A DNA stretch of 22,373 nt from Polynucleobacter sp. MWH-HuK1 (GTDB lineage: Bacteria; Pseudomonadota; Gammaproteobacteria; Burkholderiales; Burkholderiaceae): assembly GCF_018881815.1 (NCBI RefSeq), contig NZ_JACVPP010000001.1, forward strand, positions 408,979 through 431,351. Reading direction: 5' to 3'. The number at the start of each line of letters is the position of its first letter. The stretch's first letter is position 1. Below, one piece after another: positions 4,055 to 17,587 of this stretch. Below the pieces are notes generated by a model. That model searched no databases. It was not told the DNA's origin and was given only the letters and a program-made list of their open reading frames with translations. A program made the position numbers and the translations under genes.

Positions 4055-4132
4055 AGGATTGGATATCTTTAGGCTTGGTCGATTCCGCCTCAGGCCACCA
4101 AGAAATACTAAAACCACCTCCGGGTGGTTTTT
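4055..4132 (+). repeat. tRNA-3'-half-like + terminator module, copy F2
   Basis: Sequence is aggattggatatctttaggcttggtcgattccgcctcaggccacca + agaaatacta + the hairpin aaaccacc-tccg-ggtggttt (4111-4130) + a T-run. It starts 5 nt after the stop at 4048-4050. Confidence 0.8.
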
Positions 4133-4269: not shown

Positions 4270-4734
4270 TTACTTTCTTTGATTAAGTTTTCCCGAGCTC
4301 CATATGTCAAATTGCCGTTGAGCTTCAGCAGTGATGCCATCAATAGAGTCTTGGGGTAATTGCTTAAGGCATTCAGCTAACGCTTCGGGGCTGGGTTTTT
4401 CAGCAGGCTTGGTCTTCTTAATTTCTTGCGGCGATTTGCCATCCCAAGCAAATGGATTGCCAAACGCTGGTGTATCGGGCAGGCAATCATCTCTATAGAC
4501 TGGCGCATCATTTGTAGCAAATGGCGTAAATGAAATCGTTCTTTCAAAGATGAGTGATTTGCCTGTTGGTGTAGGTGGCAGAGCTGGCATAGACTTCATT
4601 GCCTTTCTAGCTAATTGCTCCGCTTTATCGGAAGTTTTCCAAAGCGTTTCTACTTTAGTAACAGTTCCATTTGGAGCAATTTCAATGCTGAATCTCACAT
4701 GTCCTTGGTCTGGAGACCCTGCTCCAAAAATCAA
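4270..4734 (-). CDS. Hypothetical protein with a TonB-C-terminal-like segment; possibly a gene remnant
   Basis: GHVRFSIEIAPNGTVTKVETLWKTSDKAEQLARKAMKSM resembles the TonB C-terminal fold signature. The track start is TTG (rc of 4732-4734), with an in-frame stop 5 codons upstream. There is no TM or Pro-rich N-terminal part and no Shine-Dalgarno. Confidence 0.45.
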   Translation of the reverse strand: MIFGAGSPDQGHVRFSIEIAPNGTVTKVETLWKTSDKAEQLARKAMKSMPALPPTPTGKSLIFERTISFTPFATNDAPVYRDDCLPDTPAFGNPFAWDGKSPQEIKKTKPAEKPSPEALAECLKQLPQDSIDGITAEAQRQFDIWSSGKLNQRK

Positions 4735-4765
4735 GAAAATTAATGACTATGGGCAAACATTAGTT

Positions 4766-5137
4766 GTGGATGATGAAAAAAACATTCATGCCAAATATTT
4801 CTTTAGTCCTGATAAAAGACAAAATAAAGGCTTATTAATTCCTGTTGCCGCGCAAGTGGAGAACTTAACAATAGCTAAGTGGGAAAGAATTTCTATTCAG
4901 GGCAAGCTTGAGAGAAAGTTTAATCAAAAGGGATGGTTCAAGTGTCTTCAGGACTCACAAGGTTTTTATACGGAAATTGTTTTTGGTGAGCCGATAAAAT
5001 ACGAAATATGGATTAAATTAGTTGAAGATGGAGATGTATTTTTCGGTAGCGGGATGTACGAGGGAAATGCTAGACCATATTCTCAGTGGCGAGCTTCAAA
5101 CACGTTTTGGAATAAATTAATTACTAGCCGATACTAG
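4766..5137 (+). CDS. Hypothetical protein, start uncertain (GTG 4766 proposed)
   Basis: The 195-codon open frame 4550-5137 is antisense to 4270-4734 for its first 185 nt. Only the non-overlapping part looks protein-like (KYFFSPDKRQNKGLLIPV...WFKCLQDSQGFYTEIVFGEPIKYEIWIKLVEDGD). There is no in-frame ATG after 4735 until late in the frame. Confidence 0.35.
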   Translation: MDDEKNIHAKYFFSPDKRQNKGLLIPVAAQVENLTIAKWERISIQGKLERKFNQKGWFKCLQDSQGFYTEIVFGEPIKYEIWIKLVEDGDVFFGSGMYEGNARPYSQWRASNTFWNKLITSRY

Positions 5138-5164
5138 GTTGCCCATACATTTTATTGAAAATAA

Positions 5165-5199
5165 ACTTGCTGTATGAGCTCAAAACTTTTACAGCAAGT
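5165..5199 (+). promoter_or_regulatory. 10-bp-stem hairpin or operator immediately upstream of the integrase start
   Basis: acttgctgta (5165-5174) pairs perfectly with tacagcaagt (5190-5199) across a 15-nt loop. It ends 2 nt before ATG 5202 and covers where a Shine-Dalgarno would be. No T-run follows it. Confidence 0.5.
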
Positions 5200-5201
5200 C
5201 G

Positions 5202-6476
5202 ATGTCTAAAGACGTAGTCACTAAACTTACAAATCTAGAAGTTCTCCCCTCACCTCAGCATAAATCTCAATCCACAGTCTTAGGCCAACTTAAATACGCA
5301 GAGCCTACAGAGCTTTATTTACGTGACGGTGACGTAGTACTCTTTCGCAGACCAAATAGCCCTCTCTGGCAATGTCGTTTTAAACGACATGACAACACAT
5401 GGGACAGAGTCTCAACCAAGCAAGCATCAATTGAACATGCCGTCAGAGTTGCCTGTGATTTATATGATGAAGCCAGATTTCGCCAGCGGTTGGGGCTTGC
5501 GCAAAAAGCACCTACATTCGCAGAAATAGCGCACGCCACACTTTATGAAATGCGACGTGATTTGGATGAAGGCATTGGTAAGGTGGTTTACCTAAGCTAT
5601 ATCACTTGTATTGAGAAATACTTTTTGCCTTATTTCATGGATAAGCGACTAGAGGAAATAACCTATACAGACGTTCATGAGTTTGAGATTTGGCGTAATA
5701 GACAAATGCGACTAGTGCCTAAATCCAGCACCTTAATGAACTTTGCCAGTGCTTGGGCGAAGCTACAGCAGACAGCAGTTAATAAAGGCTGGATAAGTGA
5801 GCGAGTGGCAATACCTAAATTAACTACTCGTGGGCATAAAGGTAAAACTCGTCCTGCCTTTAGCCGCGAAGAGATTACCAAGTTATTTGAATATATGGAG
5901 AGGTGGGCCAAGGAAGGCCGCCTAGAGGTAGAGCGGGAGATAAGGCCTTTAGTACGTGACTATGTAGAGATGCTTTTGCTAACTGGCATGCGACATGGTA
6001 CTGAAGCACTCAATATTTGCTGGAACAATATTGAATGGCATACCAATGATGGCAAGAAATATCTGCGTATATGGGTGGATGGCAAAACTGGCGGTCGCTG
6101 GCTAATAGCTAAACATAGGGCTGTTGATGTTCTCAAGAGATTACATAGCCGCCAAAAAGCTGTGTATGACATTCCGTTTGATAGATTGTTTGAATCTCGT
6201 GCGCCGCAAAGGATATTTGTGATGGCAGATGGGCATCAACCTTTGCGTATTGATGGCACATTTAAGAAGCTTATGCGAGATAGTGGATTAGCCAGAAGTC
6301 AGGATGGGCAAATGCGTACCTTGTACTCATTGCGACATACTTACGCAACATTAGAGCTACTAGAGAATAAGACGGATATTCACACGCTGGCTAAGCAAAT
6401 GGGAAATAGTGCCGCCATGATTGAGAGGCACTATTCAAAACTGACTCCCACTATGGCGGCTGAGCAATTGGCGTAA
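5202..6476 (+). CDS. int: Tyrosine-type site-specific integrase (phage integrase family), 424 aa
   Basis: Catalytic signature: LLLLTGMRHGTEAL (box I Arg), YSLRHTYATLEL (HxxR) and MGNSAAMIERHYSK (Tyr). A long N-terminal arm/core-binding region is present. Confidence 0.9.
   Translation: MSKDVVTKLTNLEVLPSPQHKSQSTVLGQLKYAEPTELYLRDGDVVLFRRPNSPLWQCRFKRHDNTWDRVSTKQASIEHAVRVACDLYDEARFRQRLGLAQKAPTFAEIAHATLYEMRRDLDEGIGKVVYLSYITCIEKYFLPYFMDKRLEEITYTDVHEFEIWRNRQMRLVPKSSTLMNFASAWAKLQQTAVNKGWISERVAIPKLTTRGHKGKTRPAFSREEITKLFEYMERWAKEGRLEVEREIRPLVRDYVEMLLLTGMRHGTEALNICWNNIEWHTNDGKKYLRIWVDGKTGGRWLIAKHRAVDVLKRLHSRQKAVYDIPFDRLFESRAPQRIFVMADGHQPLRIDGTFKKLMRDSGLARSQDGQMRTLYSLRHTYATLELLENKTDIHTLAKQMGNSAAMIERHYSKLTPTMAAEQLA
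5372..5390. repeat. Island palindrome copy B, inside the integrase CDS
   Basis: atgtcgttttaaacgacat is identical to copy A. It encodes (Q)CRFKRH at int codons 57-63. Confidence 0.85.
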
Positions 6477-7575: not shown

Positions 7576-7599
7576 TTGTAATTCCTTTCAGTGTTTAAT

Positions 7600-7623
7600 G
7601 GTGGTGGCAGTTAAGCCACCACC
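7600..7623. terminator. 9-bp GC-rich hairpin between 7631-8419 and the AAA+ gene (possible attenuator)
   Basis: The hairpin is ggtggtggc-agttaa-gccaccacc. On the minus strand it is not followed by a clean T-run, so its termination efficiency is uncertain. Confidence 0.4.
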
Positions 7624-7630
7624 TGTTTGG

Positions 7631-8419: not shown

Positions 8420-8464
8420 TTTTACTTCTCCTGTGTGTATATAAAGGTATGGTTGCTTGTTAAG

Positions 8465-8520
8465 AAATTTAACCGCTTGGCCATGACTCTATTAGGCCTT
8501 TTTTTGATAAACTTAACCGC
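8465..8520. promoter_or_regulatory. Direct 12-mer repeat in the divergent promoter region
   Basis: aaatttaaccgc (8465-8476) and aaacttaaccgc (8509-8520) match at 11 of 12 positions and are offset by 44 bp. They lie between the divergent starts at 8419 and 8557. Confidence 0.4.
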
Positions 8521-8556: not shown

Positions 8557-9312
8557 ATGTTAAGAAGATTCCTTGCCCAGCACCCAACATTTGGAACAAA
8601 GAACAATCCACGCTCTTTGTCATACCAACAACAAAGCCCTTATTACTGGTGGTGGGCTTATTTGCGTCGTAATGAGGACTACTTAAAGTGCTGTGAAAAA
8701 AGCGGCAAAGGAAAGTTCGCAAAACTCTATAAAGACTTTGGAGATGTAAGAGAAGATAACTTTAAGAAATGGTGGACGGAGGAACAGCGAGGCGCCAATC
8801 TATTTTCTGAACAAGCGGGGTTAATGACGCTAATCGAACTTGAAGATAAAAGCCAATGGGATGAAGCTTGGACTAAAGACAATGTACTGATAATTGCGGC
8901 GCCTCTTACATCTAGCAAAAGATATCTTCAAAGCAGATTTGCTCGATTATTGAAAGAGCGACATACCGCTAAACGAGGAAGAACAGCCAAGAAGCTGGAA
9001 GCTAGCAATGCCAACTATCCCCTCGAAAGAAATTACACAATAGAGAATTTGAGAAAGACACTTCAGGTTTACGACGAATATGTTCGCACTAGGGCTGATG
9101 TTAAGAAAGTACCGCTATGGAAGGTTGGGGAGAACCTCCGATTAGTGCCTACTGCCATGACCTCTTCAAAGTTAATGGCAGATGAAAACTTTTTAAGAAG
9201 AAACGTCATGGGCGCAACTGTTAAGCGTTATCTAAAAAATGCTGAAAGATATATCAATGGTGCGGCACAGGGAAAATTCCCTGTATCAACAAAAGTCGTT
9301 TCAAACGACTAA
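8557..9312 (+). CDS. Hypothetical protein with a Trp-rich YYWWWAYLRRNEDY motif (DUF6499-like N-terminus?)
   Basis: The track start is TTG 8542; I prefer ATG 8557 (MLRRFLAQ...). The motif recalls the W-x-FLRRNP-x-Y signature of a domain seen in ICE/island regulators. That assignment is from memory and unverified. Confidence 0.6.
   Translation: MLRRFLAQHPTFGTKNNPRSLSYQQQSPYYWWWAYLRRNEDYLKCCEKSGKGKFAKLYKDFGDVREDNFKKWWTEEQRGANLFSEQAGLMTLIELEDKSQWDEAWTKDNVLIIAAPLTSSKRYLQSRFARLLKERHTAKRGRTAKKLEASNANYPLERNYTIENLRKTLQVYDEYVRTRADVKKVPLWKVGENLRLVPTAMTSSKLMADENFLRRNVMGATVKRYLKNAERYINGAAQGKFPVSTKVVSND
9294..9310. repeat. Island palindrome copy D, spanning two convergent stop codons
   Basis: agtcgttt-c-aaacgact encodes KVVSND-stop of 8557-9312 and overlaps the stop of 9309-9875. 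A second palindrome, acagggaa-aa-ttccctgt, lies just upstream (about 9267-9284). Confidence 0.8.
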
Positions 9313-9875
9313 ACCAATTCAACCGCCGCTTTAAGTTGAGTTGGACTTGAATATAGATAGCTAGCAGTAGTGCTGATGTTTCTATGCCCTGCCAAGCTTT
9401 TTAATATATGGATTGCTGTACCTTTATTGGCAAGGCCAGTTAGAAAGCTACGTCTTCCGCTATGACTACTCGCACCATCTAAGCCTACGTTGCGATATAG
9501 GTAAAAGAAGTACTGGGCTAGGGAGTTAGCTGAGAAACCTGCTTGTTTCTGCGTGTAGAACAAAGGCTTGCCGGCATCCCTAATGCGAAGTAGACGCAAA
9601 TACTGGCCAATCTCTTTGCGCATACGTTCATTAAGGTAAACAGTACGGGCATGTTTACCCTTGGTTTGTTCGGGCAATAAACGTACTTCATCCTTAATCG
9701 TGTTATCGCTGTTTAAAACGTCGTTTATGCGTAGGGCGGCAACTTCACCTACCCGCATACCCGCGTAATGCGTAAGTAGCAACATAGCGCGATTACGTGC
9801 GCTGTGCCTACGTGTAGCAACATGGTCTAAAACTCTACGTAGCTCTTGTGGGTTTAAAACTCTAGCTTGTGACAT
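9309..9875 (-). CDS. Small tyrosine recombinase, catalytic domain only (188 aa; FimB/FimE-sized)
   Basis: The protein has HSARNRAMLLLTHYAGMRVGEVAALRINDV (box I Arg), HSGRRSF (HxxR) and LAGHRNISTTASYLY (His/Tyr). There is no N-terminal core-binding domain. A GGGAGA Shine-Dalgarno precedes the start. Confidence 0.85.
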   Translation of the reverse strand: MSQARVLNPQELRRVLDHVATRRHSARNRAMLLLTHYAGMRVGEVAALRINDVLNSDNTIKDEVRLLPEQTKGKHARTVYLNERMRKEIGQYLRLLRIRDAGKPLFYTQKQAGFSANSLAQYFFYLYRNVGLDGASSHSGRRSFLTGLANKGTAIHILKSLAGHRNISTTASYLYSSPTQLKAAVELV

Positions 9876-10835
9876 ACGTTCTCCCTGAAATGTAATAAAT
9901 ACAGAGCTACAGTATGTTTTCTTATGTTTGGTTAGAGCAACCGAAAATGGCTAAGTAAGAACCTTCCAAAATTCAAAGACTTAGCTGATTTCATAATCTT
10001 TTACATATTAGATTATGTTTTCGTGGCATTTTCGCCACGAACTTTCATGAAGTATTTATAAGCCCTACAAGCTGTTTGATTTCGGGTTCTGCTACCCAAG
10101 TAAGCGAAAGCTTCTAATCATCGCTTAAACGAAGGATTTACCCTGAATGGGTCTACAGCTATTAAATTTCTGGGCTACGAAAAATTAATAGGTAGCTGAA
10201 GCTTTTCGGGTGGTGATTTTCTACCTATACCCCCTTAGTAGTAAGCGAGCTAACACTCGCTTGTGATTTCGCTTGTCGCTCATCACATTTCTTTCTTCTT
10301 AAATTGTTTGTATTGGCTTTCTCTAGATTCAACCTACACTGAGCCTTAAGCAACAGGCTCAGTTATAGAGAAGAAATAAGGAAAAGGACTTTCTCTGAGT
10401 TCTTTACTACACCACTTAGGGCACAACCCAATTGGGTAAGGGCGGTTTTGCTGTCTCCTTTTATGTGCGGCCGTAAAACGCAACAATGACATCAGCATTA
10501 AGTGGCTACCAATGTCTTGTTCGCAAGTTGCTGTGTAAGCAGGGCTTGCTCGTGATTCATTTAATCTTTGTGCTGAAACATTCTTGTATCAATTAGTAAG
10601 CAACTCTAATGGCGTCCTGTAAAGGATAGTGATACTAAGTCTCTGCTACTGCCCAGAATTTCCATCACTGCGACTCTAAGTCCAGCTTTAGGGTGACATA
10701 ACGACTGGGTGTCACTGCCCTTGTTTCAGTAGTAATTTATAAAGTTATTTAGCAAAACCTAATAAAAGAAGAGTAGAAATGAATGTGATTATTAGGTATA
10801 TGTGGCTTTTGGCATAAAGAGGTTGCTCTTTCGAA
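9876..10835. other. 960-bp ORF-free region rich in local hairpins (candidate invertible switch, large ncRNA, ori or decayed DNA)
   Basis: The track shows no ORF of 60 aa or more in any frame. Hairpins occur at 9992-10017, 10021-10040, 10243-10262 and 10338-10363. The hexamer gtaagc occurs 4 times (10100, 10241, 10535, 10596). A 9-bp inverted repeat, agagcaacc (9934-9942) and ggttgctct (10821-10829), brackets the region. Confidence 0.5.
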
Positions 10836-10883
10836 ATGGCCGACAATAAATTAACTGTGCCCATTCACACAAAGGAGAAAACG

Positions 10884-11321
10884 ATGAGCACACTTAATAG
10901 TTTGAAATTAGTAAATTCTAAAAAACCAACCGCAATTCCACCCATCCTTCATCGCCGTAATAAGCTAGGTTCTAAGGTATGGGAGCAAATTCAGCTAGCC
11001 AAAGCGCAAAAGGAAGGCGGTACTTTTACTGTTAAGAAATTCAAAACAGTGAAAGACTACGACGGCTCGCGTAAGAATATTGAAATTGAAAAGCGTATAC
11101 GCCAGTGGTGGTACGTGGCGGCTGACGGCAAGGTTTGCTTAAACATTCGCTATGGGGCAAAAATTATTGAATTTGCCAAAGGTAAAACTGCCGTAGAGGT
11201 GGGCTCAGGCGAAGAGCTTATTAAGGCACTTGAGATTATTAAAGGCGCTGTAGAAGCTGGCGAACTCGATACCCAAATTGAACAGGCTAGTGGGGCTGTT
11301 CGAGCTGGGTTTGGCCGTTAA
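10884..11321 (+). CDS. Hypothetical island protein (145 aa), DUF6641-like by recollection
   Basis: An AGGAGA Shine-Dalgarno at 10873-10878 favours ATG 10884 (MSTLNSLK...) over the track's 10836. The pattern RRNKL...EQIQLAKAQ...KRIRQWW...IRYGAKIIEFAKGK..VEV...ELDTQIE resembles a family seen in proteobacterial islands. That resemblance is unverified. Confidence 0.7.
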   Translation: MSTLNSLKLVNSKKPTAIPPILHRRNKLGSKVWEQIQLAKAQKEGGTFTVKKFKTVKDYDGSRKNIEIEKRIRQWWYVAADGKVCLNIRYGAKIIEFAKGKTAVEVGSGEELIKALEIIKGAVEAGELDTQIEQASGAVRAGFGR

Positions 11322-13153: not shown

Positions 13154-13250
13154 GGGGTGGTGTAACCAGTTGAAATCAAAGCGAAAGCGGTCTATCGGAG
13201 GATATTTGAAAATCCTTGTGTCGGTGGTTCGATTCCGCCCCGGGCCACCA
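13154..13250 (+). pseudogene. tRNA-like remnant: well-formed 3' half (13199-13250) without a matching 5' acceptor strand
   Basis: The T-arm is ggtgg-ttcgatt-ccgcc (13223-13239), followed by acceptor 3' strand ccgggcc, discriminator a and CCA ending at 13250. The anticodon-like stem aggat/atcct (13199-13216) closes an 8-nt loop, atttgaaa. The best upstream partner, ggggtgg (13154-13160), gives two G-G mismatches. Confidence 0.55.
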
Positions 13251-16241: not shown

Positions 16242-16976
16242 TTGTCTGATCTGATCCTTCAGGCTCTAGTCCTAGGATCGCTGGGCCTGGGCGCTGGGGT
16301 TTTGGGTGGCGTCATTGGTTTTGGCACCACCATCATACTAATGCCCGCCCTCGTTTATTTTTATGGGCCTATTCAGGCAATTCCCGTTATTGCTTTAGTT
16401 GCAACCGTTGCCAATCTTTCGCGTATTTTTTTGTGGTGGAGCGTCATTCGGTGGCGCGTTTGCATTGTCTATAGTCTTGTAGCTATTCCGTTCACGGTGT
16501 TGGGTGTGAATACTTTGGTGCGGCTTGATGAGCGATTGATCGAAATGACTTTGGGCGGCTTTCTAATTTTGCTGGTACCAATTCGCCGCTGGATGCGTAA
16601 AAAGAATTTTTATTTAAAGCTTTGGCAGATGGGCTTGGTTGGTGCTTTCATAGGCTACTTAACGGGCATTGTTGCGACTACAGGAGCAATCAATACCCCT
16701 TTCTTTTTAGCGTATGGCTTAAGCAAGGGCGCCTTCTTGGGCACGGAGGCAGCAAGCACTCTATCGATTTTATTTACCAAGGGCATAGCATTTCACCAAC
16801 TAGGCTTTTTGAATATTACAGCCATCATGCAAGGACTGCTCATTGGGATTTGTGTTTTGGCTGGCTCAATTTTTTCCAAAAGAATTGTGTTGGCATTGCC
16901 AGAAGATAAATTTCTATTGCTGATGGAGTTAGTCATGTTGCTTTCAGGACTTTCTATTCTGACGATGTCTTTTTAG
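16242..16976 (+). CDS. TauE/SafE-family sulfite or anion exporter
   Basis: It has about 8 TM segments and a GGVIGFGTTIILMPAL motif. The start is TTG at 16242, because the nearby ATG 16232 is out of frame. Confidence 0.75.
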   Translation: MSDLILQALVLGSLGLGAGVLGGVIGFGTTIILMPALVYFYGPIQAIPVIALVATVANLSRIFLWWSVIRWRVCIVYSLVAIPFTVLGVNTLVRLDERLIEMTLGGFLILLVPIRRWMRKKNFYLKLWQMGLVGAFIGYLTGIVATTGAINTPFFLAYGLSKGAFLGTEAASTLSILFTKGIAFHQLGFLNITAIMQGLLIGICVLAGSIFSKRIVLALPEDKFLLLMELVMLLSGLSILTMSF

Positions 16977-17031: not shown

Positions 17032-17222
17032 ATAAGCAGGAGAGTGAGGGGTCTCCCTCCACCGAAGGCGCAAACTCCCATGAACGCTCAGGTATCCACC
17101 AGGAAGGTACTGCTTATTCTAAATAGCCGTCTGGAGAGCCACCATTTTTATGGTGCACCGAAGGAGCAAGCCCTAAGCTACGCTTAAGGTGAATCTCTCA
17201 GGTATCAAGGACAGGGGGAGCG
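17032..17222 (+). promoter_or_regulatory. Tandem glycine riboswitch (two aptamers)
   Basis: Aptamer 1 reads caGGAGAGtgagg...ctCCACCGAAGGcGCAAactc...CTCAGGtatcc...ctg. Aptamer 2 reads ctGGAGAGcc...gtgCACCGAAGGaGCAAgcc...CTCTCAGGTATCAAGGACAGgg. Both match the GGAGAG / CACCGAAGGGGCAA / CUCAGGCAAAAGGACAG consensus. P1 of aptamer 1 is aagcag (17034-17039) paired with ctgctt (17110-17115). Confidence 0.85.
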
Positions 17223-17395
17223 GCATCCATCAGCGCGACCATGATCCGCTGATGGGCTGCTTTGGGAGAGTCTCCATGCACATTCAGATCGAATAGTTCG
17301 CAAATTTTTATCGCGCCGCAAATGCGGTTTTTAAATTCATCGATATTTCCCAGAATGAATTTTCATTTTGAGTGCTAACTTATTAAGGTAAATGT

Positions 17396-17587
17396 ATGAC
17401 AAACAAATTTGTTGAAGAGGCCCCATACCACCCTGGCTATGAAGATGCTGGTTTTAAAGGTATTGTTTCACCTCTGGCTGCAGAAATCGATCGCTTCAGA
17501 AAAAGCAATTCTCGTTACTTAAGCTTTGCTGATGTAATCGTGGATTTTTGTGTATCCGATCAAAATAAATTACAGCACGCTAAGTAA
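17396..17587 (+). CDS. Small hypothetical protein (63 aa) downstream of the glycine riboswitch
   Basis: It is the only ORF between the riboswitch and the strong terminator at 17598-17623. The Shine-Dalgarno (aagg) is weak and I recognise no family. Confidence 0.5.
   Translation: MTNKFVEEAPYHPGYEDAGFKGIVSPLAAEIDRFRKSNSRYLSFADVIVDFCVSDQNKLQHAK

What the first reader, a model, noticed from the sequence alone, without database searches (positions are those of the whole stretch)
9309..10883. FimB/FimE-sized recombinase next to a 960-bp ORF-free, hairpin-rich region bracketed by a 9-bp inverted repeat
The 188-aa recombinase has all catalytic motifs but no core-binding domain. From memory, its box I region (HSARNRAMLLLTHYAGMRVGEVAALRINDV) and C-terminus (GHRNISTTASY) track E. 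coli FimB closely. It is immediately followed by 960 bp without any ORF of 60 aa or more. The inverted repeat agagcaacc (9934-9942) / ggttgctct (10821-10829) sits 59 bp from the recombinase start and 55 bp from the next gene's start (10884). This bracketing by the two gene starts is what a fimS-like promoter inversion switch would look like, although an 888-bp switch would be unusually large. My rough estimate is that a 9-bp inverted repeat somewhere in 960 bp is expected by chance about once, while one within 60 bp of both ends has probability around 0.01-0.03. The interior has many independent stem-loops and 4 copies of gtaagc, so a large structured ncRNA, an oriV/oriT or decayed genes are live alternatives.
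Basis: inference. Interest (0 to 1): 0.7.

Follow-up and report, generated by a model that had tools for sequence, protein, structure and literature searches.

The report
Large island RNA, not inversion switch
The ORF-free kilobase next to the small recombinase is not a flip-flop DNA switch: it holds a ~540-nt highly structured non-coding RNA gene (its first third is the known Polynucleobacter-1 motif) plus a slot for swappable cargo genes, and the "bracketing" inverted repeat is simply two outward-facing copies of a promoter box that this mobile island also uses for its integrase.

Summary
The coordinates, the 188-aa recombinase, the ORF-free gap, the 9-bp inverted repeat (IR) and the hairpins are all real. 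The fimS-like switch reading fails. In 53 distinct homologous gaps the IR-bounded segment is never inverted. The arms mismatch in 31 of 52 loci. Each arm is the 5' end of a 31-nt promoter-like motif (GGTTGYYC-N12-13-GAMAA-YAWAYT). That motif occurs three times in the window (0 expected), in sense orientation 63-67 nt before the ATGs of rec188, DUF6641 and the island integrase.

The interior is mainly a structured RNA gene on the minus strand (about 10781-10243):
- Rfam Polynucleobacter-1 scores 96.9 bits at 10585-10720.
- Further helices outside that motif also covary: 22 of 100 pairs changed on both sides, 98.7% of cells paired, G-U 259 versus A-C 9.

Between the RNA and rec188 lie a hot spot, where sister islands carry orphan acidic-protein genes in either orientation, and a conserved hairpin leader that sequesters the rec188 Shine-Dalgarno sequence.

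Islands with 100% identical rec188 replace the RNA with a small basic-protein gene, so the RNA is exchangeable cargo and not a recombinase cofactor. rec188 is Xer-like, not a FimB/FimE member. The function of the RNA remains unknown.

The parts
9309..9875 (-). rec188: a 188-aa tyrosine recombinase made of the catalytic domain only. It is Xer-like and is not a FimB/FimE family member.
   Evidence: ORF limits. Pfam PF00589, E 5e-25. NCBIfam: XerA 82 bits, XerD 69 bits, Fim-type invertase 38.7 bits against a cutoff of 221. Best PDB relatives are XerC-like 4a8e and XerA 5hxy. Catalytic residues are invariant.
9883..9906 (-). Hairpin in the rec188 5' UTR. CUCUG (9906-9902) pairs with CAGGG (9887-9883), which overlaps the Shine-Dalgarno sequence AGGGAG.
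   Evidence: Alignment A4 of 61 upstream regions. The helix shows two-sided changes (UA/CG, GC/UA) and G-U 73 versus A-C 11, which assigns it to the rec188 strand.
9911..9942 (-). Promoter-like motif GGTTGCTC-N13-GAAAA-CATACT before rec188.
   Evidence: The box is conserved at a fixed position before the ATG, down to homologues with 60% protein identity.
9992..10041 (.). Two conserved hairpins of the recombinase-proximal leader (module D): CATAATCT/AGATTATG, which covaries, and CGTGGC/GCCACG, whose stem is nearly invariant. Strand unresolved.
   Evidence: (I20, I21). The 9-bp helix has three or more pairs with alternative Watson-Crick types. G-U 10 versus A-C 7 does not decide the strand.
10134..10242 (.). 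Variable slot (cargo hot spot). In this window it holds only a ~100-nt conserved non-coding element. Sister islands delete it, or carry 0.4-1.3 kb with one or two orphan ORFs, in either orientation.
   Evidence: Block structure of 53 gaps. ORF families and their strands. No Pfam, PHROG or PADLOC matches.
10243..10781 (-). Structured non-coding RNA gene of about 540 nt. The ends are inferred, not mapped.
   Evidence: RNAalifold on 42 sequences. Pair counts: 98.7% of cells paired, 22 of 100 pairs with two-sided changes against 14.0 +/- 1.4 in shuffles (0 of 500) and 4-7 in slid controls. G-U 259 versus A-C 9. MFE z-score -3.0.
10585..10720 (-). Polynucleobacter-1 RNA motif (Rfam RF01718). It forms the 5' domain of the larger RNA.
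   Evidence: cmscan 96.9 bits against a gathering score of 37, E 4e-20, full model 1-141. The same motif has the same orientation in 8 of 13 genome loci tested.
10467..10566 (-). Three or four further hairpins 3' of the Rfam motif, not covered by any Rfam family.
   Evidence: Helices 10-14 carry 10 pairs with two-sided changes. An E-value-level Rfam scan finds nothing here.
10456..10770 (-). Predicted long-range helix UUCUUUUAU (10770-10762) / AUAAAAGGA (10464-10456). It would enclose the Polynucleobacter-1 domain and the following hairpins.
   Evidence: It is 99.7% paired, but both strands are almost invariant and there are only one-sided U-A/U-G changes. It is therefore predicted, not proven.
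10243..10286 (-). Two 3'-terminal hairpins (GUGAU/AUCAC and AAGCGAG/CUCGCUU). They are shared by RNA-bearing islands and by islands that carry the basic ORF instead.
   Evidence: The last hairpin has at least 10 different stem sequences, all paired. G-U cases favour the minus strand 4 to 1. The hairpins are retained in L006 and L008.
10788..10815 (-). Sigma-70-like promoter candidate for the RNA (ATGCCA-N16-AATAAT; TTGCCA in most relatives).
   Evidence: with conservation. Weak: two lineages have 10-11-nt deletions in it.
10821..10852 (+). Promoter-like motif GGTTGCTC-N13-GACAA-TAAATT before DUF6641.
10884..11321 (+). DUF6641 protein gene, the conserved divergent partner of rec188.
   Evidence: Pfam PF20346 and phrog_31551. 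It is next to rec188 in all Polynucleobacter-type loci that reach it. The AF2 model (pLDDT 77) has no structural match in the PDB.
5137..5167 (+). Third copy of the promoter-like motif, GGTTGCCC-N12-GAAAA-TAAACT, ending 35 nt before the ATG of the island integrase int424 (5202-6476).
   Evidence: The box is present 62-66 nt before int424 in 11 of 14 distinct upstream sequences from other loci.

Best explanation
The window carries an ~8-kb integrative island of Polynucleobacter. Its order is int424, a putative replication module, rec188, cargo, DUF6641, and an end at a tRNA 3' fragment.

The 1008-bp spacer between rec188 and DUF6641 is a composite intergenic region, not an invertible element. 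It contains four things.

1. Two outward-facing copies of an island promoter motif drive rec188 leftwards and DUF6641 rightwards. A third copy precedes int424.
2. A ~540-nt multi-domain structured RNA is transcribed on the minus strand, from a start next to the DUF6641 promoter to a covarying terminal hairpin. Its 5' third is the Rfam Polynucleobacter-1 motif.
3. A recombination-prone slot follows, in which sister islands carry orphan acidic-protein genes.
4. A conserved hairpin leader precedes rec188 and includes a hairpin that masks its ribosome-binding site.

The RNA is exchangeable cargo that most likely acts in trans, because some islands with identical rec188 hold a small basic-protein gene in its exact place.

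By its Xer-like catalytic domain, and by homologues that sit beside plasmid rep/par genes, rec188 is most likely a maintenance (multimer-resolution type) or regulatory recombinase of the excised island.

Shown: the anatomy, the covariation, the strand, the absence of inversion, and the triple motif. Inferred: promoter activity, the transcript ends, trans action of the RNA, and the role of rec188.
For: No inversion:
- No reversed blastn match was found in 53 distinct gaps, nor in 8 contigs encoding the identical recombinase.

Boxes:
- The composite motif occurs 3 times in the window against 0 expected. All three copies are sense-oriented, with the box starting 63-67 nt before an ATG.
- It is found at the expected places in 81 of the 116 loci fetched, and before int424 in other islands.
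- The arms keep their positions when the two genes are 5-5.7 kb apart.
- The arms are mismatched in 31 of 52 loci.

RNA:
- RF01718 scores 96.9 bits.
- The consensus fold has 23 pairs with two-sided changes.
- In the controlled count, 22 pairs have two-sided changes against 14.0 +/- 1.4 in shuffles and 4-7 in slid controls, and 98.7% of cells are paired.
- G-U 259 versus A-C 9.
- The terminal hairpin has at least 10 different stem sequences.

Cargo:
- In L006 and L008, rec188 is 100% identical to the window and DUF6641 is 97-99% identical. In both loci the RNA domains (the Polynucleobacter-1 motif and the covarying hairpins after it) are replaced by a 99-127-aa ORF on the same strand, while the 5' region and the 3' hairpins are retained.
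- Cassette ORF families occur in the slot.

rec188:
-.
- A 41% identical, 194-aa homologue lies next to RepB/ParB/ParA on Legionella plasmid pLELO.
- The Shine-Dalgarno hairpin covaries.
Against: - There are no transcript data, so the promoter function of the motif and both RNA ends are inferred.
- The motif was written after seeing its three copies. Its window count is therefore partly circular; the independent support is its conservation in other loci.
- The candidate RNA promoter is disrupted by 10-11-nt deletions in two lineages.
- The long-range helix shows no two-sided change.
- The terminal hairpin is not followed by a U-tract.
- The structure was predicted on the same alignment on which it was scored, and the sequences are related. 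Both inflate the pairing statistics.
- At rec188 the box forms a dyad (TTCGGTT-N5-AACCGAA in many loci), which could be a protein-binding or crossover site.
- Assembled contigs show majority orientations only, so a rare flipped subpopulation cannot be excluded.
Confidence: 0.72

Rival explanations
1. A fimS-like phase switch. rec188 inverts the 888-bp segment between the two 9-bp arms and so changes expression of DUF6641 and/or rec188.
For: The recombinase is small and lacks an N-terminal domain, like FimB/FimE. There is an exact 9-bp IR close to both gene starts. In L014, L027 and L028 both arms carry the matching variant GGACAACC/GGTTGTCC.
Against: - 0 of 53 distinct gaps are inverted.
- The RNA (42 of 42) and the basic ORF (7 of 7) always have the same orientation relative to rec188.
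- The arms are mismatched in 60% of loci, at positions that would lie in or next to a crossover region.
- A third copy of the same box lies before int424.
- The -10-like halves of the motifs lie outside the segment, so flipping would leave both promoter-like motifs intact.
- The Fim-family models are failed.
Confidence: 0.03
2. The GGTTGYYC boxes are binding sites of rec188 itself. The dyad in front of rec188 would be a dif/lox-like resolution site, and the single boxes at DUF6641 and int424 would be operators. On this view the IR reflects a recombinase regulon and not RNA-polymerase -35 elements.
For: Many loci have a 7-bp perfect dyad, TTCGGTT-N5-AACCGAA, at the rec188 box. Placing a resolution site within the recombinase's own promoter region is a common design in plasmid and transposon resolution systems (recalled knowledge of Tn3 res; not tested here). 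Plasmid homologues lie beside rep/par genes.
Against: The right half of the dyad is absent in Limnohabitans-type relatives, where only the single box is kept. All three boxes are followed at a fixed 12-13 nt by GAMAA and a -10-like hexamer, as expected of a promoter. No binding data exist.
Confidence: 0.15
3. The whole gap is one long cis-acting 5' leader of the rec188 mRNA, that is, a giant riboregulator.
For: The RNA and rec188 are on the same strand, with no canonical terminator between them in this window. The Shine-Dalgarno-masking hairpin shows that rec188 translation is structured. Rfam annotators considered Polynucleobacter-1 possibly cis-regulatory (recollection of the Rfam/Wikipedia text; one search lists it with 'y' under cis-regulatory).
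Against: In many sister islands 0.4-1.3 kb of genes, often on the opposite strand, separate the RNA from rec188. The distance from motif to ATG varies from 620 to 1350 nt. rec188 has its own conserved promoter-like motif. Identical rec188 genes exist without the RNA.
Confidence: 0.07
4. The hairpin-rich region is the island's origin of replication or transfer (ssDNA hairpins).
For: The island encodes a clamp-loader/DnaC-like AAA+ protein. Limnohabitans-type relatives have 1-3 perfect DnaA boxes 130-240 nt upstream of the recombinase gene, and L112 has three ~140-230-nt copies of this region in tandem. Thermodynamic stability is the same on both strands.
Against: There is no DnaA box or iteron array in the window's gap. 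The strong G-U over A-C asymmetry and the Rfam covariance-model hit argue for RNA on one strand over most of the region. The recombinase-proximal ~250 nt remains open to this reading.
Confidence: 0.05

Closest known systems
Polynucleobacter-1 RNA motif (Rfam RF01718; Weinberg et al. 2010, PMC2864571)
   Same: The window holds a full-length, high-scoring member (96.9 bits) in a Polynucleobacter genome. It lies next to a DUF6641-type gene. The 2010 supplement already noted a neighbouring gene family, GOS11034; that this family is DUF6641 is my inference, not a test.
   Different: The described family is a 141-nt motif known from 16 examples, with no function and no link to a recombinase or an island. 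Here it is the 5' third of a ~540-nt RNA with further covarying helices. It sits in a defined slot of a mobile island and is interchangeable with a protein gene.
FimB/FimE-fimS invertible promoter switch of E. coli
   Same: A ~190-200-aa tyrosine recombinase without an N-terminal DNA-binding domain, and a short inverted repeat nearby.
   Different: No inversion is observed, the repeat arms are promoter boxes that also occur before a third gene, the candidate promoters face outwards at the arms and do not lie inside the segment, and the protein fails the Fim-type family models.
Large structured RNAs of mobile elements and prophages (GOLLD, ROOL, HEARO/omega-RNA class)
   Same: A length of several hundred nucleotides, many covarying helices, residence on a mobile element, and unknown biochemical role (comparison from general knowledge of these families).
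   Different: There is no sequence or covariance-model similarity to any of them. This RNA is restricted so far to freshwater Burkholderiales islands. No multimeric or guide function is indicated.
Multimer-resolution tyrosine recombinases of plasmids and phages (XerCD at cer/psi, Cre-loxP)
   Same: A Xer-like catalytic domain, a dyad-symmetric site just upstream of the gene, and homologues next to plasmid rep/par genes.
   Different: rec188 has no N-terminal domain, the dyad is not conserved across the family, and no recombination product or partner site has been seen.
Integron (intI, attI, cassette array)
   Same: A tyrosine recombinase gene lies beside a slot with variable, promoter-less orphan genes.
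   Different: rec188 lacks the IntI-specific insertion and N-terminal domain (TIGR02249 scores 42.6 bits against a cutoff of 265). No attC-like repeats or fixed cassette boundaries were found, and cassettes occur in both orientations.

Membership tests
Polynucleobacter-1 RNA (RF01718) | A match to the Rfam covariance model above the gathering score, over the full model. | tested here: met
   96.9 bits against 37, model positions 1-141 of 141, minus strand 10585-10720.
Polynucleobacter-1 RNA (RF01718) | Helices supported by compensatory changes among homologues. | tested here: met
   Helices 3-9 (window 10583-10732) contain 12 pairs with two-sided changes. G-U 35 versus A-C 2.
FimB/FimE-type DNA invertase with an invertible promoter element | Protein belongs to the tyrosine-type DNA invertase family. 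| tested here: not met
   NF007370 scores 38.7 bits and NF007371 25.8 bits, against cutoffs of 221-222. Xer models score higher.
FimB/FimE-type DNA invertase with an invertible promoter element | The segment between the inverted repeats is found in both orientations. | tested here: not met
   0 reversed matches in 53 distinct homologous gaps. This covers assemblies only; read-level data were not available.
FimB/FimE-type DNA invertase with an invertible promoter element | The inverted-repeat arms are kept identical, because they are recombination partners. | tested here: not met
   Arms are perfectly complementary in 21 of 52 distinct loci, have one mismatch in 17 and two in 14.
FimB/FimE-type DNA invertase with an invertible promoter element | A promoter inside the invertible segment drives the adjacent gene in one orientation only. 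| tested here: inconclusive
   The conserved promoter-like motifs start at the arms and run outwards. No transcription data exist.
Tyrosine recombinase superfamily (catalytic domain) | The R-K-H-R-H/W-Y active-site residues within a PF00589 domain. | tested here: met
   PF00589, E 5e-25. R41, H138, R141, H164 and Y173 are invariant in 10 relatives. My own offset arithmetic on the XerD 1a0p match range (query 24-181 to chain 129-285) places them at XerD's catalytic positions (XerD numbering from memory); no residue alignment was inspected.
Integron integrase and cassette array | IntI family membership and attC-flanked cassettes. | tested here: not met
   TIGR02249 scores 42.6 bits against 265 and NF011946 23.3 against 435. 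There are no shared cassette boundaries or repeats.
Xer-type or plasmid multimer-resolution system | A defined core site with two recombinase-binding arms around a 6-8-bp spacer, and resolution of dimers. | not testable with these tools
   Only a candidate dyad at 9925-9946 and plasmid context of homologues.

The most novel reading that the evidence does not exclude
The Polynucleobacter-1 motif is only the 5' domain of a new ~540-nt multi-domain RNA. This RNA would be a stand-alone, trans-acting cargo of a small integrative island and would do the job that a ~100-130-aa basic protein does in sister islands. One possibility is an RNA-based immunity, anti-defence or copy-control factor. That would give a natural case of RNA-versus-protein functional replacement at one locus, and a new member of the short list of large bacterial RNAs of unknown function.
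Probability: 0.25. Interest if true: 0.7.

Novelty: new variant of a known kind. Interest (0 to 1): 0.42.

Why it matters
For the finding as posed, the result is negative. There is no new phase-variation switch, and the "bracketing" repeat is explained by promoter boxes.

What remains is useful to RNA and mobile-element biologists for four reasons.
- An orphan Rfam motif, left uncharacterised since 2010, gets a genomic home: a defined slot of a widespread freshwater Polynucleobacter island.
- It gets a much larger covariation-supported architecture.
- It gets a natural protein counterpart occupying the same slot.
- It gets hundreds of environmental variants.

Together these make its function experimentally approachable in cultivable Polynucleobacter strains. 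The shared 31-nt promoter motif also gives a handle on how the island co-regulates its two recombinases.

Tried and rejected
- **Inversion.** blastn of the window gap against 53 distinct gaps, both strands, gave no reversed match.
- **IR as a long-range RNA helix.** Rejected. The arms sit at fixed distances from the ATGs whatever the gap length (903-5680 nt). They mismatch in 60% of loci. The left arm lies upstream of the RNA's candidate promoter.
- **Precise cassette boundaries or attC-like sites.** Right junctions scatter over gap positions 650-845. Flipped cassette homologues are too diverged (65-78% identity in short patches) to define break points.
- **Function of the cassette ORFs, the basic ORF and the other island proteins.** No informative Pfam, PHROG, NCBIfam or PADLOC hits.
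- **DUF6641 structure.** The AF2 model (pLDDT 77) gave no PDB fold match with E below 0.3.
- **Phage or viral origin.** No rec188 family member was found in IMG/VR beyond one hit at 24% identity. The conserved RNA core pattern was not found in viral contigs, and the gap has no match in GenBank phages.
- **DnaA boxes or an origin in the window.** None found.
- **Strand of the recombinase-proximal hairpins.** Undecided.
- **The 9-bp hairpin ACCTAATAA/TTATTAGGT (10757-10797).** Mismatches of both polarities are common, so it is not a maintained helix.
- **GTAAGC repeats.** Enriched in the gap, but the positions are not conserved.
- **Homology of the neighbours of the Azospirillum plasmid homologue to p256/p262.** None.
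- **Literature.** Nothing on DUF6641, nothing on an RNA partner of tyrosine recombinases, and nothing on this island.
Full report
**1. Observation**

The sequence features are as described. A 188-aa ORF lies at 9309-9875 on the minus strand and cannot be extended upstream. It is a tyrosine-recombinase catalytic domain (PF00589, residues 6-176). R41, H138, R141, H164 and Y173 are invariant in relatives.

The next gene (DUF6641, PF20346) starts at 10884. The spacer is therefore 1008 bp, and its only ORF is 50 aa. The inverted repeat (IR) AGAGCAACC (9934-9942) / GGTTGCTCT (10821-10829) is exact.

The same 1.15 kb contains three other perfect 9-bp inverted repeats, so the repeat alone is not significant.

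The remembered resemblance to FimB does not hold. The Fim-type invertase models score 38.7 and 25.8 bits against cutoffs of about 221. Xer-type models score 67-82 bits, and the nearest solved structures are XerC-like and XerA proteins.

**2. Context**

The exact recombinase protein is encoded on many metagenomic contigs, and relatives occur in Polynucleobacter genomes. The gene order is conserved:
- a 424-aa integrase (int424);
- p135a, an AAA+ clamp-loader-like protein, and p262;
- p256;
- rec188;
- the gap;
- DUF6641, p135b and p269.

The flanks differ between contigs. Identity to sister contigs stops at a tRNA-Phe-like 3' fragment at about 13204-13249, and a second tRNA-like fragment lies at about 4060-4100. 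The region is thus an ~8-kb integrative island, and rec188 is its second, minimal recombinase.

**3. Test of the switch**

I collected 59 loci that contain both rec188 and DUF6641 homologues, which gave 53 distinct gaps of 903-2231 nt.
- blastn of the window's gap against all of them, on both strands, gave only collinear matches.
- The eight contigs encoding the identical protein are also collinear.
- The two arms vary independently. Of 52 distinct loci, 21 have perfectly complementary 8-mers, 17 have one mismatch and 14 have two.

Recombination partners, or strands of an RNA helix, would be expected to stay matched.

**4. What the arms are**

Each arm sits at a fixed distance from its gene in every locus. 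This includes Limnohabitans-type relatives in which the two genes are 5.1-5.7 kb apart.

A search for GGTTGYYC found a further copy at 5137, which is 65 nt before the int424 ATG and in sense orientation.

All three sites share a longer pattern, GGTTGYYC-N12-13-GAMAA-YAWAYT. It occurs exactly three times in the window, against 0 in 100 shuffles. In the other loci it falls at the corresponding places, and it is present 62-66 nt before int424 in 11 of 14 distinct upstream sequences.

The pattern has the layout of a -35-like element (TTGYYC), a 17-18-nt spacer and a -10-like hexamer.

I wrote the pattern after seeing the three copies, so the count in the window is partly circular. The independent evidence is its conservation elsewhere.

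I conclude that the inverted repeat consists of two divergent copies of a promoter box used by at least three island genes. Whether RNA polymerase alone, a regulator, or rec188 itself reads the box was not tested. At rec188 the box is part of a dyad (TTCGGTT-N5-AACCGAA in many loci). That dyad is not kept in the distant relatives.

**5. What fills the gap**

*The Rfam hit.* Rfam finds a full-length Polynucleobacter-1 RNA (RF01718) at 10585-10720 on the minus strand, at 96.9 bits against a gathering score of 37. The same motif, in the same orientation, lies 620-1350 nt upstream of rec188 in 8 of 13 genome loci.

*Conservation and covariation.* An alignment of 42 gaps shows conservation far beyond the motif. 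RNAalifold predicts 103 pairs, of which 23 have two-sided changes. On a curated 100-pair structure:
- 98.7% of cells pair;
- 22 pairs show two-sided changes, against 14.0 +/- 1.4 in column shuffles (0 of 500) and 4-7 when partners are slid by 1-3 columns;
- ten of these covarying pairs lie in hairpins 3' of the Rfam motif (window 10566-10467), which match no Rfam family.

*Strand.* G-U pairs outnumber A-C by 259 to 9. This fixes the strand as minus. Thermodynamic stability alone does not distinguish the strands, with z-scores of -3.0 and -3.25.

*The 3' end.* The RNA ends in two hairpins (10286-10243). The last one has at least ten different stem sequences, all of which pair.

*Long-range helix.* A helix between 10770-10762 and 10464-10456 would enclose the first domains. 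Both of its strands are nearly invariant, so it stays a prediction.

*Promoter candidate.* A sigma-70-like candidate (10815-10788) lies back-to-back with the DUF6641 motif. Two lineages carry deletions in it, so the 5' end is approximate. The RNA is therefore about 540 nt (about 10781-10243).

**6. The RNA is exchangeable**

In L006, L008 and five other loci, the segment from just after the candidate promoter region to just before the 3' hairpins is replaced. In its place is an unrelated 97-132-aa basic ORF on the same strand. These loci have no Rfam hit.

L006 and L008 nevertheless encode rec188 100% identical to the window, and DUF6641 97-99% identical. rec188 therefore does not need this RNA, which argues against a guide or cofactor role. 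A cis-leader role is also unlikely (see section 7 and the rival explanations).

**7. The variable slot**

Between the RNA's last hairpin and the recombinase-proximal ~260 nt, sister islands have nothing, the ~100-nt element seen here, or 0.4-1.3 kb with one or two ORFs. These ORFs are mostly acidic. They have no family matches.

Four ORF families occur on either strand in different loci. The flipped copies are old and diverged, so no junctions can be defined.

This plasticity is internal to the gap and does not coincide with the IR arms.

**8. The recombinase-proximal region**

The ~260 nt before rec188 is conserved across the family. It holds a nearly invariant GC hairpin, a 9-bp covarying hairpin whose strand is undecided, and a covarying hairpin that pairs CUCUG with the Shine-Dalgarno region. 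In this last hairpin G-U outnumbers A-C by 73 to 11. rec188 translation therefore looks restrained.

Limnohabitans-type relatives lack the large RNA. They carry 1-3 perfect DnaA boxes in this region instead. The window has none.

**9. rec188's likely role**

Homologues of similar length, 41-45% identical, occur on plasmids. On Legionella pLELO the gene lies beside RepB, ParB and ParA. Taken with the Xer-like catalytic domain and the island's replication-type genes, I infer a maintenance or resolution role, or an autoregulatory one. No partner site or recombination product was seen.

**10. Comparison with what is known**

The 2010 description of Polynucleobacter-1 gives a 141-nt motif from 16 sequences. 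It notes a neighbouring gene family and a 3' half that is often undetected. It gives no function. I found no later paper on it, on DUF6641, or on RNA partners of tyrosine recombinases.

As far as this library shows, the following are new:
- the larger architecture of the RNA;
- its fixed slot in an island;
- its protein alternative.

**11. Verdict**

The invertible-switch interpretation is rejected. The biochemical function of the RNA is unknown. My committed reading is a trans-acting cargo RNA of the island.

Noticed in passing
window 17121-17224 (+): A glycine riboswitch aptamer (RF00504, 59.1 bits) lies in the host flank, about 145 nt after the TauE-family gene (16242-16976) and upstream of a small 63-aa ORF at 17396. 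The same riboswitch is in the flank of L023 (1270-1373).
   Followed up: no
window ~4060-4100 (+) and ~13204-13249 (+): Two tRNA 3'-end-like fragments (T arm, acceptor and CCA) lie in direct orientation. The second includes a GAA anticodon arm, so it is tRNA-Phe-like. No intact tRNA gene is present in the window. Identity to sister islands ends exactly at the second fragment, so the two look like att-type repeats bounding the island together with a small RE-like element.
   Followed up: partly
window 4550-5137 (+): A 195-aa ORF matches only the C-terminal part of the LlaMI restriction endonuclease family (PF09562, profile positions 103-264 of 266). It lies between the first tRNA-like fragment and the integrase promoter box. 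It may be a truncated or solitary restriction-enzyme gene.
   Followed up: no
window ~8440-8490 (between p262 and p256): A nested palindrome, CATGGCCAAGCGGTTAAATTTCTTAACAAGCAACCATA, lies in the divergent promoter region of p262 and p256. It is strongly conserved across most islands even where the flanking proteins are only 45-70% identical. It looks like an operator.
   Followed up: no
window ~7580-7625; L003 versus L100: The GC-rich hairpin between p262 and the AAA+ gene has its loop reverse-complemented between two otherwise near-identical islands (GGTGGTGG-CTTAACTG-CCACCACC versus GGTGGTGG-CAGTTAAG-CCACCACC). This is a small hairpin-loop inversion polymorphism.
   Followed up: no
L006 2897-3305, L008 2593-2976, also L067, L078, L085, L089, L097: A family of 97-132-aa basic ORFs with no database matches occupies exactly the slot of the structured RNA. 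The strand, the upstream region and the 3' hairpins are the same.
   Followed up: partly
gaps of L009/L023, L019/L092, L035/L097, L051/L059: Four families of orphan, mostly acidic cassette proteins occur on opposite strands in different islands. No inverted repeats or sharp junctions could be defined because the copies are diverged.
   Followed up: partly
L027, L028, L108, L113 and others, 130-285 nt upstream of the recombinase gene; L112 973-1638: Limnohabitans-type relatives of rec188 have 1-3 perfect DnaA boxes (TTATCCACA) upstream of the gene. L112 has three copies of this region (~140-230 nt each) in tandem. This suggests an origin-like or DnaA-controlled region in that branch.
   Followed up: partly
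L117 (Ga0326332_10000002): An island variant in which the large integrase gene lies directly downstream of DUF6641, not on the far side of rec188. The gap holds a 260-aa cassette and a 118-aa ORF. The rec188-cargo-DUF6641 core is kept while the rest is rearranged.
   Followed up: no
window 10100, 10241, 10535, 10596 (+): Four of the window's 13 GTAAGC hexamers fall in the 1-kb gap, all on one strand (GCUUAC in the RNA). The positions are not conserved in relatives, so they are probably not a functional repeat.
   Followed up: yes
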